10,504 bases of DNA from Methanobacterium sp. (GCA_003166335.1 PMWA01000053.1:1-10504), one strand, 5' to 3'. Positions 1 to 6,000 are shown, numbered from the stretch's first letter. A program made the numbers.

Positions 1-3000
1 TTTGATAAATTTATCATCCTTAATTAAAAAAATAATCTTGATCGTTATAAAAATAATCTGTATAATTTTCTAATGTTTGACTTCAATACCTAAGCCAATA
101 CTCTAACCTTTGTAATGATTTTAACCTATAAATTTGAATTGTTATAATAAAATTTTATTTTCAAAAAAAATAGATATCTTTTCAAAATGGTGAAGTTTAA
201 ATAAATGATTATGATTTATTAAGTTTTCAGATACTCGATTTATCAGTTAGCCTAAATCTAAAGATTACCCATATAAATGTAAAATTTGCTCAAAAAATTT
301 AATAAATTTAAGTGCTCCATTACGAAGTAGAATATTTACCTATAAAAAAGATTAAAAATTAATCAAAAATTAAGGTTTACTATTTACCATCCTTCTTTCG
401 TACGTTTAAGATAATTTTTGACTATAAAATTTATATTTAATTTTTTTATACACGTTAAATAGATGTTTATTTTTTATTTGAACTGTAGATTTTAAATGTA
501 TAAACTAGAATGCAAGCAATACAAGGGTAAAGTTTATTATTCGCAGTGTAATCTCGTTTATGGGTAGTATTATGGTCTGTGGATGATTTTTTTCTTTAGT
601 GAATTTATATGTAGAAAAATTATGTGGATTGGTTGTTTCTGGAACAATTTTTAAATAAATATTCAACTTATCTTATAAATAATCTAAGATATTTTTTCAC
701 TTTTTTATAACGATTTATAAATTCTTTTGATTATTAATGATCTTCAGATGATCCAATGTAGGTTGCATAGAATCCATCAGTATCGGCATATATTGGTTTT
801 AAACCACAATTCTCAGATTTTTTCATGGTTTTTTTCAGGAATTCCCTTCCCCATGCGGTAATCGCCTCTGAAGCCTCTATACAATACCATCGATATTTGG
901 GATGATTATAAAGTCCATAGATTGTGGAGATTAGTGTTTTTCGTGCTTCTTGTCTGAAGTTTAAAATTTGTTTTTCCTCGGGATCTGTGGATTCTTTCAT
1001 CATAGATTTAATTCGTATTCTGTCTTTCAAAATTTGGGATGTGGCTGCGGGAATAAAGCCTATTGGTTCTTTTTTGAATTTATATCCAAATTCAGGTGCA
1101 ATATGGCATGTTTCTTCATCGCCATCTTTACAAAGGGTTTCTGGAGAAATATTTTTTGCTATTATTATACTAGGATAAAGACTCTTGAAATCGAAGTAAA
1201 CAATATTTTCGTGTAAGCCTGGTATTGGTTCTTCTACATATCCTCCTACCACGTTTCTTTCAAATTTCTCGGGTTCATTTGGGAGAATGTGGCCAAATTC
1301 GTAGGATTTGCGGATTAAATACCATTTCACCTGGGTTCCGGTTCCCCGTCTGATGATTTCAAATAGTGGTTGTCCTACTATCCGTGCGAGCTCTATACTG
1401 ATGGGCAGCATTCTCTCTCCGATTTTTGTAATAGCAATCGTATCTTCAAGGGAATATCTGAAAAGTTTTTCTCTTTTTTCACCACCATCATTCCAACAAG
1501 TGTAAATCTCATCTAGGGGGATATCGATTTTATCATCCCCGAAAAGCTTATGATAAACGCTTTGTAGTGTATGGCTATTTAATTGAAGATGTCTCTGGAC
1601 AATCCTGTAAAGATCAATATGAATACGGCCCTTAATCAGTGCGGCTTTTTTTGGAACTGTTATAAACTTAAGTTTGGATCCATCGACTCCCAGGTTGAGT
1701 GATACACGTAATCGGTCAGCTCTTTCTTTGATGTATGGAAAGTCAAATTTGTCTGAGTTGTAACCGGTGATTATGTCTGGATTTTCGGATTTAATGGTTT
1801 CAACAAATTTCTTTAATAATTCCTTCTCAGTTGGGATTGTCATTACAAAATCAGATGATGATTTTTTTGAGGAAAATACTTTACGAAACCCGTGATTACT
1901 GGAGAAACTAATCATAATAATTGGATCTTCGCTAACTATGGGCATGCCCTTGGGATTACAAGCTTCAATATTGAAACTCAGAACATTAAGTTCTGGTAAA
2001 TCGGATTCAATAAGTGTGGGCTGATTTTTTATTTCAAATATACATGTTTTATTATATAGTGGAAATTGTCTAGAATTTATGCAGTGACCCTTCACTTCAA
2101 CTGTATGCATGGGGAATAATCCTTTATCTATGAGATACCTGCGATAAAATGGGATGTCATGTTCTCTAATTTCATCTACGGTCTGTAAAGCCAATATTGT
2201 CTTTTTTAACTTAAGCAAATCTCGTGGATGGTTAAATGTTATCTTTATGAAATCTTTCGATTCTTTTAAATCTTTTTTGTGGACTTTCTCTACTTTAAGA
2301 AGTTCAAGTTTACTTAATTCTTCTATACAGTCAACAAAATCATATGGAAGAACGTATATGTAAGGTTTGAAGCTTTTATCATGTGCTATTATTGATAAAT
2401 TATTATCTTCTCCAATTAATTTGCCGAATAATCTTATAACAGCTACATTTTTTTTAGTGATATAATCAATATCCAATAACACGAATTTTTTAGTATCCAT
2501 CATCGATTATTTCCTAAACATATTCATTTCCACTTAAATCCGCTTTTCTTTAATTTGAGGGGTCTGTGAGTTTCTTCGACTTCTTTCTCCGAGCCATGAT
2601 GAACTCCCTAGCAGCATGGTCTATTATTTCCATCATATTCTGATGCTGAATACCTGGATTAATAGATGGTTTAATGGGTATTCTCATATCACATTTCATC
2701 ATGTCACTAGTGTACCAATTTCCTCTCCGTTTCGTGTATTTCTCATCTAGAGTAGAGACATAGTGGTAGGAGAAATCGGATATCCTTTTAGTGTTGAATA
2801 AATGTTCCAGTTCATCTGTGATGTTAGTAAGTAAACCTGAAGCCAAATTAAGCTCGTTTATGTTGATGGATTTACCATTCTCCAGATTTATAGAGTTTAT
2901 TTGGTATAAACCATCTATATATTCTTTTATATCCCCGTGCCACTTATGAAAGTCTTTACTAGGGAATACTAATAAGTCATTACTGTTCAAAAATAAATGT

Positions 3001-6000
3001 GGTTTGTATAACAATATCTTACGTTCATCCATGATGCCATAACTATATCTCATGCCTTCATCAACACGTCATATAATAATTCATATTGAATGCTTTAATT
3101 GTACTGATACGCTGTTTCCAGATAATGCAACCTTCTTCTCTGAACTTCTAATTGTATCATATAGATATGCATCAAGATAGCATTGCACAGGTTCTTCTTT
3201 GAACATTAAATTCATATTTATGTCCAGGATATTAATTCGCTCTAATATTTTAGTCCAATAATCCAGTAACTTCCATTCTTCAACTCTATCAAGATGCATA
3301 TCTACTTTATTAATATAATCAATCTGCTCCCTGATAGAACTATATGTTCTATTAAATTCCTCCCTTGCGAATACAATAACTTCTTCATGTTCCTGGAATA
3401 ATACAGGGTTATAAACTTCTGCAATCCTCCCATTAGGTATCCCTCCACTCACTTTCATTTAAAACTTCCTTATAATTTCATTTAAAACTTCCTTATAATC
3501 AACTTTAAAAATTTTTTAGAATATTAATCTGTTTTGTAATGTCAGCACTAACAATAAAGCTGCAAATGTCCAGGTACCAGCAACAAACATGCCAGTAAGT
3601 AATGTTCGATAGTCAGTTTTAGTTTTAGGCTCACCGCAAACTAAACAATGTTTTAACACCATAAAATCACCTCCATTTTTATTTGCTGTTCATTACACGC
3701 ATAATTATCTCAGTAAAACGATTATACTGTTTATGGGAGAATGTCAAGTTACAATGCGGGCAAAGATGCCAAAGCTCCTCCTCAGGCGGATCTTTAAGAT
3801 AATAATCCTCCATGGTTTCCCTGCAGTTAGGGCATTCCATAAAATCAGATCCAAATTCTTTTCTTTTCATCTCTATTTCTTGGACCTGGTTCCTGGTGAA
3901 TTCATACCAATTTATAAAATCTTTCTTAGGAATTATAAGCAATTCTTTTGGGTTTAGCTTCTCAATACCTCTTAAATCTTCTTTTTCTCTGGTTTTTATA
4001 TCTGTCATAAATGATCTCTCCTCAGGGTGGATCACTATAGATCTTAAACATAAACGATGTTTTTGTAAGAGAGCAAATGAGAAGTAAAAAAATAATAATC
4101 TGTCAAAGTAATAGATGGTTATGGCAAAGCCGGAATAAGTGAATAAAGCTTTAATAATGAAAAATATAACTAGACTAGTTTATGCGGAGAATAAAAAAAA
4201 TTAATTCACAGTTTTAGGTGAGTATAAATGGATGTATTCCGTTCTATATTACTTTTTATCTTAGCGGGATTTTTTGAGATCGGTGGTGGTTACCTTATTT
4301 GGCTTTGGCTGAGAGAAGGCCGTGGCTTTGAGTTAGCTATATTGGGTGCTATAATATTGGTTCTCTATGGGATAATACCAACTTTACAACCCGCTAACTT
4401 TGGTAGAGTATATGCTGCTTATGGTGGTGTATTCATATTTTTATCTCTGCTATGGGGTTGGCAGATTGACAAGGTAACTCCCGATCGTTTTGATGTTATA
4501 GGGGCTTCTGTGGCTCTTATAGGTGTATTTATTATTATGTACTGGCCACGAAGTTGAGAGTCAAAGAGCTCCTAAAATAAAACCTCTCTAGATCCAAATA
4601 ACACCGATATTATTTTATAACAGGAATCCCTGTCATGTCCACGTAAATTTTCTATAAAAAATCAACCAAATAATTAAAAAAGATGACGTTAATAGAAAAT
4701 TTATTGATAAATTTTTTAAAATGTTAAGATGAATAATAAGTGTATAAACGATCGTTAAAAAAATATTTATGAGGTAAAAATTGTGGAATTCGTAGAATTA
4801 GTGCATAAAAGATGTGCTGCCAGAGCGTATGATGATAAGAAGATTGATGATGATAAAATTAGCCAGATACTTGAGATGATACGGTTTTCACCTTCAGCGT
4901 TGAATCTGCAGCCGTGGAAGATCAAAGTTATAGATGATGATAAATTGAAGGAAGAATTGTATCGGAACTCTCAGGATCAAAAACATATTGTTTCATGCTC
5001 TCATTTATTAGTGTTCTGTGCGAATACGGATATACGGGGGAATGCTGATAAAGTGATTGATAGCATGAAGATGACAGCGGAGATGCCGGAAGGTATTGTT
5101 CAGTTTTTTGAAATGGGTGTAAATATTTTTCTTGACAGATTCACCCCTGAAACTATCATTTCAGAAGCGCAGCATAATGTTTTTATTGCAGTCACTCATG
5201 GAGTGTACGCTGCTAAATCATTAGGTATAGATTCTTGTATATTGCAAGGATTTGATCCTGCTGCTTATTCAGAGATTCTCGAGCTTCCATCCCACATTGT
5301 ACCTACTGTTCTCGTTACATTGGGATATGCTACAGATGAACCAATACCAAAAATAAGATTACCAAAAGAAGATATTTTTATCTAAGCCCTTAATGAATAT
5401 TCACCTAAATGAGTTAATAAAAAAGATAATTTTCTGAACAAATGAATGAACTAAATGATGATTTTGTTCGTTATAATAATTAAACGAAGTTTAACAAATG
5501 AATTTTAAAAAAATTCTACATCTCCACATTTTTTTTTAATGCAAAAGTGAAAAATTATATGATTTAAAGATTTATTTATTTTAATGTCTAATAAATTAAT
5601 TAAAATTGATTAATTAAGATATCTTCAAGTCTTTTTGGAAGAATGAATCAAGTCGTAACTCAGTTACTTCTACGATTCGAGCGAGGTAGGGATCATTTAG
5701 ATCTTTTAAAATTAATTGGGAATTGGCTATCAGATTTTTACATATTTTATAAATTTTGCGAATGTGTTTTTTATCGTTCCGAAGAAGTTTAGCCATGTCT
5801 TTGGGTTTTTTGTATTCTAAAAACTGTTCATAACCTAGGGTTATATAGGAAAAATGACCTATTGCAAGGTCTTCTTCCAAGTCTTTCCAGTCGTCGATGA
5901 TCTGAATCACAGCGCCAAAAAGGAAAAAAACTTCAAAATAGTCTTCGATAAGATCGGATTTGCCTAATTGATCTAGACTCAACATGAATGGTGTCAGAAG

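What a model noticed while it worked through the whole genome (the two positions that open the first line are those of the whole stretch)
734..4008. Extra family-B DNA polymerase cassette with two unknown small partner proteins
Besides its replicative split PolB (g01656 + g01898) the genome carries two more PolB large-subunit genes (g02655 on C124, g01778 on C93), each preceded in the same orientation by a 167-aa protein, and on C124 also by 125-aa, 48-aa and 109-aa (zinc-ribbon) proteins, none of which matches any family. I read this as a genus-restricted, mobile or island-borne accessory polymerase cassette in which the paralogous 125/167-aa proteins are dedicated partners of the extra polymerase (repair, translesion or element replication). 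An accessory PolB system with its own new subunits has not been described for Methanobacteriales.
Evidence so far: g02655 (588 aa) and g01778 (586 aa) are 48-49% identical to Swiss-Prot PolB subunit 1 against 59% for g01656, keep DxxSLYPS and YADTDG and end just behind the latter. p167 (g01777, g02656; 90% alike) has no Pfam (E up to 0.01) or PADLOC hit; p125 (g02657) shares its first ~60 residues with p167 (alignment A2, call 116). search_genomes with p167: 14 of 41 genomes, all in this genus (13 of 18 others; 0 of 23 genomes of other genera), 1-4 matches each. In all 4 relatives' loci fetched (L328-L331) the order p125-p167-PolB is kept while flanks differ. In one relative the cassette PolB is unsplit (797-805 aa; its last 221 aa 67% identical to PolB subunit 2 g01898, call 117). 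Leader genes recur wit [...]
(Added by a program. Inside this text positions count along the whole contig: contig position 1 is position 1 of the stretch shown here. "Call 12" and the like, gene names such as g00115 and contig names such as C1 are that model's own, and its searches are not shown. The text may have been shortened before it was handed on; [...] marks where a part breaks off. The agent that wrote the report below was given it as the finding of a first reader that could run no searches.)

Follow-up and report, generated by a model that had tools for sequence, protein, structure and literature searches.

The report
Reinvented damage-response polymerase cassette in methanogens
This methane-producing archaeon carries a spare copy of its own DNA polymerase gene that has lost a key proofreading residue and sits, with two small genes of no known family, behind a promoter signal shared with DNA-repair genes, so it likely acts as a damage-induced, error-prone polymerase built anew from household parts.

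Summary
The genes are real, but they are not genus-restricted, not a two-strain artefact and not a self-replicating element. The polymerase is a duplicate of the host's split PolB3 large subunit. Its catalytic residues are intact and under purifying selection. The proofreading Asp is lost in 38 of 41 extra copies (kept in 19 of 19 host copies), and uracil-pocket and motif-B residues are changed. A 20-22-bp element precedes the cassette (47 of 49 loci). Across Methanobacteriales it also precedes nreA, RPA, uvrB, hef and cdc6, and it agrees with the Sulfolobus Orc1-2 damage element in 14 of 20 columns; the scan noted such elements before in other archaea. This genome has no Y-family or PolB2 polymerase. 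p125 carries a conserved PIP-like motif. In a second genus the p125-p167 pair precedes either PolB or Ku-ligase, so it is a repair module rather than strictly polymerase-dedicated. Best reading (0.5): a convergently evolved, damage-inducible, error-prone polymerase that borrows the host small subunit. It would work like the PolB2 mutasome without belonging to that family. Induction, activity and binding are untested.

The parts
4067..4088 (-). Promoter element (consensus ATTASTTYTCANNTGCTCTC) resembling the Sulfolobus DNA-damage-responsive element; homology between cassette copies starts at its 5' edge
3679..4008 (-). 109-aa zinc-ribbon protein (CPNC...CPHC); optional leader gene, often pseudogenised elsewhere
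3516..3662 (-). 48-aa protein with CxxC and a hydrophobic C-terminal half; optional leader gene
3453..3498 (.). Exact 23-bp tandem duplication at the start of p125, seen in this copy only; no role inferred
   Evidence: (D12)
3081..3458 (-). p125: predicted N-terminal beta-hairpin/strand unit, helical hairpin, then a conserved PIP-like motif and a low-confidence tail
3162..3185 (-). PIP-like motif of p125, residues 92-99 (QxxLDxYL)
2550..3053 (-). p167: paralog of p125 over the first ~50 residues; no known family; under purifying selection
734..2500 (-). PolB3 large-subunit paralog (588 aa): catalytic D437, D573, D575 and steric-gate Y442 intact; N177 (Pfu D141), L95 (V93), K99 (R97), S525 (N492); 6-residue deletion before the GGYV linker; no thumb, no own PIP
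9100..9121 (+). Second copy of the promoter element
9189..9533 (+). Second p125 gene; intact (125 aa) once the NN assembly gap at 9507-9508 is seen filled in an independent contig
9562..10410 (+). Decayed remainder of the second cassette: frameshifted p167 joined at 10012/10013 to PolB codons 432-584 (about 1.4 kb deleted), with a premature stop

Best explanation
The cassette encodes a duplicate of the host PolB3 large subunit that lacks the proofreading aspartate and lies behind a promoter element shared with DNA-repair genes; it is likely switched on by DNA damage, likely borrows the host small (thumb) subunit, and is predicted to copy across lesions or fill repair gaps at low fidelity, with a probable p125-p167 pair acting as its clamp (PCNA) adaptor. 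Shown: genes, paralogy, substitutions, purifying selection, the element and its other target genes, the PIP-like motif, and no PolY or PolB2 found in this genome. Inferred steps: (1) an Orc1/Cdc6 paralog binds the element upstream of TATA and activates transcription after damage, by analogy with Sulfolobus Orc1-2 (about 0.75); (2) the large subunit pairs with the single host small subunit on C99 and is active (about 0.8); (3) loss of D141 removes proofreading (about 0.9), and the V93/R97/N492 changes relax uracil stalling and substrate geometry (about 0.5); (4) p125 binds PCNA through QxxLDxYL, dimerises with p167 through their paralogous N-termini and helps swap this enzyme in at stalled primers (about 0.4).
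For: Origin: 41 extra PolBs form one clade (SH-aLRT 99, quick tree) nested among host PolBs of the same genus. Activity kept: motif A and C aspartates, steric-gate Tyr and motif-B Lys are present in 41 of 41; polymerase-domain dN/dS is 0.10-0.12 against 0.09 for host copies; three copies that carry a small-subunit tail (two in frame, one frameshifted) are nested among split ones, and the tail is 70% identical to the host small subunit. Proofreading lost: D141 is kept in 19 of 19 host and 3 of 41 extra copies, one of which lacks E143 instead; 26 of 28 readable metagenome loci lack DxE. V93 is kept in 19 of 19 against 2 of 41, N492 in 19 of 19 against 8 of 41 (Ser in 32) (numbering). D141A/E143A inactivate the exonuclease, V93Q lowers uracil stalling and N491S is found in engineered TNA polymerases (PMC9738464 passages); proofreading hinders copying of deaminated bases (PMC2794169 abstract). 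Regulation: the element lies upstream of p125 in 47 of 49 loci, against 1 of 49 on the other strand. It is in 43 of 50 other Methanobacteriales genomes and 0 of 10 outside the order, reversed control 0. It lies 56-61 nt before nreA in 16 of 30 loci, including 13 of 13 in genus g1, and before RPA, uvrB, hef, topoVI-B, a MutS-like gene and cdc6 in other genera. A TATA-like word follows 6-8 nt downstream in 23 of 54 non-cassette sites against 2 of 54 in the control. The consensus agrees with the Orc1-2-bound 20-mer in 14 of 20 columns (74 of 20000 shuffles). Need: no Y-family polymerase in G000 and one clear case in 50 other Methanobacteriales; all 5 PolB hits in G000 are accounted for. Clamp link: Q92, L95, D96 are in 112, 112 and 113 of 113 p125 homologs; a strict pattern hits 12 of 2188 ORFs of G000, among them four p125 copies and the C-termini of the PolB small subunit and of an 1108-aa protein read as PolD DP2 (identity recalled).
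Against: Nothing shows induction, catalysis, mutagenesis or binding. RNA-run contigs cover cassette and flanks alike, so transcription is not shown. The exact Sulfolobus hexamer ANTTTC is not matched (one extra T), and radA, rpa and uvr genes do not appear among the top-scoring sites of G000. Proofreading loss is not universal: 14 of 16 extra PolBs examined in genus g13 keep DxE, two of them directly behind p167. The exonuclease domain stays under purifying selection (dN/dS 0.09-0.14) and keeps ExoII (41 of 41) and mostly ExoIII (37 of 41). Half of the V93 changes are conservative (Ile in 21 of 41). The first aromatic position of the PIP-like motif is Ser or Cys in 35 of 113 and the second is mostly Leu, so the canonical QXXhXXaa is not met. 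The pair also occurs with Ku-ligase or with neither partner (18 of 27 loci in g13), and p125 stands alone in several loci. N491S reduces DNA synthesis in KOD variants, so the enzyme may be weak.
Confidence: 0.5

Rival explanations
1. The module serves double-strand-break end joining: p125-p167 are accessory factors of the Ku-ligase pathway, and the proofreading-dead PolB supplies the gap-filling activity that LigD-Pol supplies elsewhere.
For: p125-p167-Ku(-ligase) are contiguous on one strand in 9 of 27 loci of genus g13, 8 of the 9 with a scored element. Ku is in 18 of 18 g1 genomes. No LigD primase-polymerase domain was found in 5 of 5 genomes tested.
Against: Ku is present in the six g1 genomes that lack an intact cassette. 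No g1 Ku locus shows the element or p125/p167 next to it (some loci are cut short). G033 has the pair but no Ku found. Uracil-pocket changes are not explained.
Confidence: 0.2
2. p125-p167 are damage-induced regulators (a DNA-binding heterodimer, or a PCNA blocker like p21 or TIP) that are co-regulated with the polymerase but do not bind it.
For: They are always first behind the element, often divergent from polB (29 of 55), and change downstream partners. Lone intact p125 with the element is common. The predicted N-terminal hairpin-helix-strand unit recalls swapped-hairpin DNA-binding folds (resemblance recalled, not confirmed).
Against: p167 and the extra PolB are gained and lost together in g1. 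No fold or family match to a regulator. An order-wide element cannot be read by a protein confined to a few genera.
Confidence: 0.17
3. The extra large subunit is catalytically feeble or inert and acts by sequestering the host small subunit or primer ends, slowing replication after damage.
For: No thumb of its own; motif-B Asn changed to Ser in 32 of 41; only one small-subunit gene in the genome.
Against: All catalytic residues are invariant in 41 of 41, the polymerase domain is constrained like the host's, and re-fused full-length copies exist.
Confidence: 0.07
4. The cassette is the replication module of a mobile element, or the copies are strain mixing in the bin.
For: Many copies and remnants per genome in variable flanks; homology between copies starts sharply at the element and ends at the polB stop.
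Against: No integrase or transposase among the 11 window ORFs scanned, no terminal repeats, no conserved mobile neighbour, no viral, phage or plasmid hit. The same element precedes single-copy host repair genes. The same flanking gene in four relatives shows vertical descent there. Copies are far too divergent for strains, and independent contigs reproduce the layout.
Confidence: 0.05

Closest known systems
PolB2/Dpo2 mutasome (PolB2 + PPB2/arCOG07300 + iRadA) under Orc1-2 control (PMC7390963, PMC6061795, PMC11791011, PMC7544198)
   Same: B-family polymerase without proofreading, small partner genes, clamp motif placed on a partner, damage-type promoter element.
   Different: Here the polymerase is a recent PolB3 duplicate (64% to the host enzyme) with a canonical DTD motif C and a whole exonuclease domain, and it is split. 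There is no conserved iRadA neighbour, and the partners show a beta-containing N-terminus rather than the three-helix PPB2.
Split PolB3 of Methanobacteriales (PMC4104785 passage)
   Same: Direct parent: same split point, same motifs A-C, nested in the tree.
   Different: ExoI Asp, V93/P94/R97, the linker before GGYV and motif-B Asn are altered; the host gene shows no element upstream.
Sulfolobales DDRE / Orc1-2 regulon (PMC6061795)
   Same: 14 of 20 consensus columns in one ungapped register; upstream position; repair-type targets including an accessory PolB and cdc6 genes.
   Different: Core reads ASTTYTC, not ANTTTC; targets differ (nreA, RPA, uvrB, hef, rtcB locus); binding and induction are untested in methanogens.
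imuA-imuB-dnaE2 cassette of bacteria (recalled, no call)
   Same: A damage-controlled paralog of a replicative polymerase without proofreading, with accessory proteins that link it to the clamp; patchy distribution.
   Different: Different polymerase family, unrelated partners, LexA control.
Archaeo-prokaryotic NHEJ (Ku, ligase, Pol; PMC4797286 abstract start in listing; PMC11936186 passages)
   Same: Ku and an ATP-dependent ligase follow p125-p167 in one lineage.
   Different: No primase-type NHEJ polymerase found (0 of 5 genomes); the candidate polymerase here is family B.

Membership tests
PolB2 group | Motif C with a single conserved Asp | tested here: not met
   YADTDG with both Asp in 41 of 41; definition
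PolB2 group | ExoI not conserved and ExoIII missing | tested here: not met
   ExoI Asp lost, but ExoIII Asp kept in 37 of 41 and ExoII in 41 of 41
PolB2 group | Operon with PPB2 and inactive RadA | tested here: not met
   Recurrent neighbours are only p125, p167 and the two leader genes; a Rad51-family gene lies 1-4 kb away and on the other strand in 3 of 55 loci
PolB2 group | Damage-induced expression and targeted mutagenesis | not testable with these tools
   Only the promoter element could be examined
Split PolB3 of Methanobacteriales | Large subunit ending just after motif C; descent from the host gene | tested here: met
Split PolB3 of Methanobacteriales | Active proofreading site (ExoI DxE) and uracil pocket (V93, P94, R97) | tested here: not met
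   N177, L95, L96, K99 in the window copy
DDRE / Orc1-2 regulon | Exact hexamer ANTTTC | tested here: not met
   Core has one more T (matrix)
DDRE / Orc1-2 regulon | Extended 20-bp consensus, oriented, upstream of repair-gene promoters | tested here: met
   14 of 20 columns; fixed spacing to nreA and to TATA-like words
DDRE / Orc1-2 regulon | Bound by an Orc1-2-type protein and needed for induction | not testable with these tools
   G000 has two Cdc6 genes; which one, if either, binds is unknown
PIP-box proteins | QXXhXXaa motif | tested here: inconclusive
   Q and h invariant; position 7 aromatic in 77 of 113, position 8 Leu in 102 of 113; definition
PIP-box proteins | Binding to PCNA | not tested
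AbrB / AF2212-like swapped hairpin | Profile or fold match of the N-terminal 30 residues | tested here: inconclusive
   No Pfam match in 113 members; the PF01954 genome search did not list p125/p167 places; fold rows covered only residues 31-96
Self-synthesising elements (casposons, pipolins; features recalled) | Integrase or Cas1 and terminal repeats beside the PolB | tested here: not met
   polymerase nests in host PolB3

The most novel reading that the evidence does not exclude
Methanobacteriaceae, having no PolB2 or Y-family enzyme, have re-invented a mutasome from their own high-fidelity PolB. A gene duplicate was wired to the pan-archaeal damage element and lost, stepwise, uracil sensing, the shuttling linker and proofreading, arriving at the same positions (D141, V93, R97, N491S) that laboratory evolution uses to make promiscuous polymerases. 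A new PCNA-binding p125-p167 adaptor loads either this polymerase or Ku-ligase at damaged DNA.
Probability: 0.3. Interest if true: 0.85.

Novelty: new variant of a known kind. Interest (0 to 1): 0.68.

Why it matters
If true, it shows a damage-inducible mutator arising from a replicative-type polymerase with intermediates still alive: copies with DxE, copies without, and re-fused copies. It would name the missing lesion-bypass or end-joining polymerase of an abundant methanogen family. It would extend the Orc1-2-type damage regulon to Methanobacteriales with a concrete target list, add a new family of candidate PCNA partners, and offer natural exo-minus, N491S-type mesophilic polymerases for biochemistry.

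Tried and rejected
Complex prediction of p125 + p167 + PolB with PolB as partner gave no verdict (score 0.00, controls not folded); it counts neither way. Single-chain models were middling (pLDDT 67 each). Foldseek of p167 gave no match at E<=0.001, and the wide VIA search of p125 gave only generic helical hairpins, Z<8. Profile searches of PDB sequences were empty. ESM Atlas gave nothing for p125 and epimerase-like hits with low shared-feature counts for p167, taken as chance. A profile search of 1.84 billion representatives gave 90 hits, none longer than 152 aa, so no informative fusion. The swapped-hairpin idea was not confirmed. No viral, phage or plasmid location. RNA runs hold the stretch but cover flanks too, so no claim of transcription is made. 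The NN positions at 9507-9508 and 10304-10305 are assembly gaps, not deletions. The careful tree did not finish; the quick tree is used, and L130 and L054 are long branches. The scoring matrix for non-cassette sites was seeded through a matrix first trained on cassette sites, so one search is not fully independent; the reversed-pattern, shuffle and opposite-strand controls carry the significance.
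Full report
Observation. The window is contig C124 of a Methanobacterium-type genome (names of homologs). 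On the minus strand lie a 109-aa zinc-ribbon gene (3679-4008), p48, p125, p167 and a 588-aa PolB large subunit (734-2500). The small proteins match no family at cut-off. p125 and p167 share their first 49 columns. A second, inverted copy lies at 9100-10410: p125 is intact, p167 is frameshifted and joined to the last quarter of polB. Independent contigs fill the two NN gaps and reproduce the deletion joint. Elsewhere in the genome, C34 and C93 overlap by 23 nt and lie on one metagenome contig as a full second cassette; C17, C33 and C113 hold partial copies. The two full polymerases are 82% identical, share 121 of 168 fourfold-degenerate sites and are mosaic, so they are paralogs and not strain variants.

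Distribution. p167 was found in 18 of 61 genomes searched, all in the family, and in 23 of 26 genomes of genus g13, so it is not genus-restricted. Of 55 genome loci, polB follows p167 in 16, is divergent from p125 in 29, has a split arrangement in 1, lies about 4 kb away in 2, and is absent from the fetched DNA in 7 (my tally; these loci overlap the handle-based set). In g1, intact p167 and an extra PolB are both present in 12 of 18 other genomes (one extra PolB only as a contig-edge fragment) and neither is intact in 6; kin are not independent. In g13 the pair precedes polB in 9 of 27 loci, Ku(-ligase) in 9, and neither in 9. Intact lone p125 genes with the promoter element occur in several of 80 metagenome loci, 19 of which I listed gene by gene. 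Nothing was found in viral contigs, phages or plasmids.

The polymerase. A quick tree of 60 chosen rows (19 host, 41 extra; redundant, frameshifted and short rows left out, L133 too short) places all extra copies in one clade inside the host PolBs of the genus. Copies that keep DxE are basal and copies with a small-subunit tail are nested deep, which points to secondary re-fusion (the careful search did not finish). With Pfu numbering from the 2jgu alignment, host against extra copies keep D141 19/19 vs 3/41, V93 19/19 vs 2/41, P94 19/19 vs 6/41, R97 19/19 vs 10/41 and N492 19/19 vs 8/41. The three catalytic Asp, the steric-gate Tyr and the motif-B Lys are kept in 41/41, and 39/41 have a shortened linker before GGYV. 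Of 44 loci with a long enough hit, 40 lack the ExoI Asp, 1 lacks the Glu and 3 keep both (11 of 55 loci had no such hit). Of 28 readable metagenome loci, 26 lack DxE. Against this, 14 of 16 extra copies examined in g13 keep DxE, although all 15 readable ones have replaced V93, mostly by Ile. dN/dS is 0.10-0.12 in the polymerase domain, 0.09-0.14 in the exonuclease domain and 0.18-0.24 in the N-terminal domain (host 0.09, 0.06, 0.14); p167 gives 0.15-0.20 and p125 0.21-0.30. D141A/E143A abolish the exonuclease, V93Q lowers uracil stalling, and N491S occurs in engineered TNA polymerases with reduced DNA synthesis (PMC9738464, passages). Proofreading hinders copying past deaminated bases (PMC2794169, abstract). 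The inference is an active, proofreading-deficient, probably lesion-tolerant enzyme that needs the one host small subunit on C99.

The promoter element. Aligning upstream regions revealed ATTASTTYTCANNTGCTCTC. In this genome 13 sites score at least 16 bits against 2-3 in shuffles. Six precede cassette copies; others precede nreA, a solo Cas4-like nuclease and small unknown genes. The pattern is in 43 of 50 other Methanobacteriales and 0 of 10 outside the order, with a reversed control of 0. It lies 56-61 nt before nreA in 16 of 30 loci (13 of 13 in g1, 3 of 17 elsewhere). In 40 further fetched regions it precedes, among others, RPA, uvrB (divergent from uvrC), hef, topoVI-B, a MutS-like gene, cdc6, RhuM-like and YdjM-like genes, and most often a 55-66-aa gene next to archease or cdc48; several targets are unknown genes. 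A TATA-like word starts 6-8 nt downstream in 23 of 54 non-cassette sites, against 2 of 54 in the control. It precedes p125 in 47 of 49 loci (opposite strand 1 of 49) and agrees in 14 of 20 columns with the Orc1-2-bound consensus of S. islandicus, reached by 74 of 20000 shuffles (PMC6061795, passages). The exact ANTTTC hexamer is not met, and radA, rpa and uvr genes are not among the top sites of this genome. Earlier notes of this scan report similar elements in other archaeal groups, often before polB2; I did not test them and had made the match before reading them.

The partners. The p125 model shows strands 2-9, 12-15 and 27-30, then three helices and a low-confidence tail; fold searches were uninformative. 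Residues 92-99 read QxxLDxYL: Q, L and D are in 112, 112 and 113 of 113 homologs, and the motif persists in distant members. A strict pattern hits only 12 of 2188 ORFs here, including four p125 copies, the C-terminus of the PolB small subunit and that of a protein I read as PolD DP2 (recalled). It falls short of the canonical QXXhXXaa (PMC4929162, passages): position 7 is Ser or Cys in 35 of 113 and position 8 is mostly Leu. In PolB2 mutasomes the clamp motif often sits on the partner iRadA (PMC11791011, abstract and passages), which is the model for reading p125 as a clamp adaptor. That step is an inference.

Mechanism and rivals. This genome has no Y-family polymerase (one clear case in 50 other Methanobacteriales) and no further PolB (PolB2 was tested by family search in this genome only). 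The best reading (0.5) is a damage-induced, error-prone bypass or gap-filling polymerase, the functional counterpart of Dpo2 (PMC7390963, passages; PMC7544198, passages and section 15). An end-joining role is the main rival (0.2): the pair heads Ku-ligase operons in g13 and no LigD-type polymerase was found in 5 of 5 genomes, but Ku is also in g1 genomes without the cassette. A purely regulatory pair (0.17), an inert decoy (0.07) and a mobile replicon or artefact (0.05) are less likely. How the cassette multiplies is unexplained. Homology between copies starts at the element and ends at the polB stop, which may reflect selection plus gene conversion or a real breakpoint preference.

Comparison and novelty. 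It would work like the PolB2 mutasome but fails that family's sequence and neighbourhood tests; it is a derived member of the split PolB3 lineage (PMC4104785, passages). Six literature searches listed no paper on an extra exo-minus PolB, on p125/p167 or on this element in Methanobacteriales. The library lacks most subscription papers, and I did not open the supplements of PMC7544198 or PMC6061795, which could list such sequences or the motif logo. PMC11936186 was seen as passages; PMC4797286 only as a listing. Verdict: a real feature, a new variant of a known kind, interest 0.68.

Noticed in passing
window 8797-9054 (+): Isolated C-terminal fragment of Cas6b (Pfam E 9e-18) just upstream of the decayed cassette copy; no other cas gene among the window ORFs scanned.
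   Followed up: no
G000:C81:7604-7792 (L106) and L172, L173, L183, L189, L191, L192, L196, L198, L203, L206, L207, L210: The most widely conserved target of the element is an unannotated 55-66-aa gene, usually divergent from archease or cdc48 and upstream of rtcB in at least one genome; a candidate core member of the damage response, present also in the thermophilic families.
   Followed up: partly
L200:1537 and L201:1293 (G032): Two cdc6 genes carry the element upstream, as expected for an autoregulated Orc1-2-like activator.
   Followed up: partly
L331-L336, L340-L342: p125-p167-Ku-ligase gene run in genus g13, without a LigD polymerase domain.
   Followed up: partly
L130:2890, L376:938, L386:713: Some extra PolBs of g13 have an N-terminal extension resembling the first residues of p125, suggesting a deletion that fused the p125 start to polB.
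   Followed up: no
G000:C117:31726-32409 (L110): Solo Cas4-like PD-(D/E)XK nuclease behind the element.
   Followed up: partly
L055-L075 intergenic region before p125 (alignment A3): TTCACC...GGTGAA could fold over the p125 ribosome-binding site; not folded or tested.
   Followed up: no
window 5614-6657 (-) and 6705-7331 (-): 347-aa protein with a DDxxD-like stretch and a 208-aa membrane protein, both without Pfam or NCBIfam hit.
   Followed up: no
L036:11207-13433: A spore-photoproduct-lyase-like radical SAM gene directly follows an unsplit cassette polymerase.
   Followed up: no
L080, L096: Two p167 loci in bins labelled as bacteria have neighbours like those of the Methanobacterium loci and look mis-binned.
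   Followed up: no
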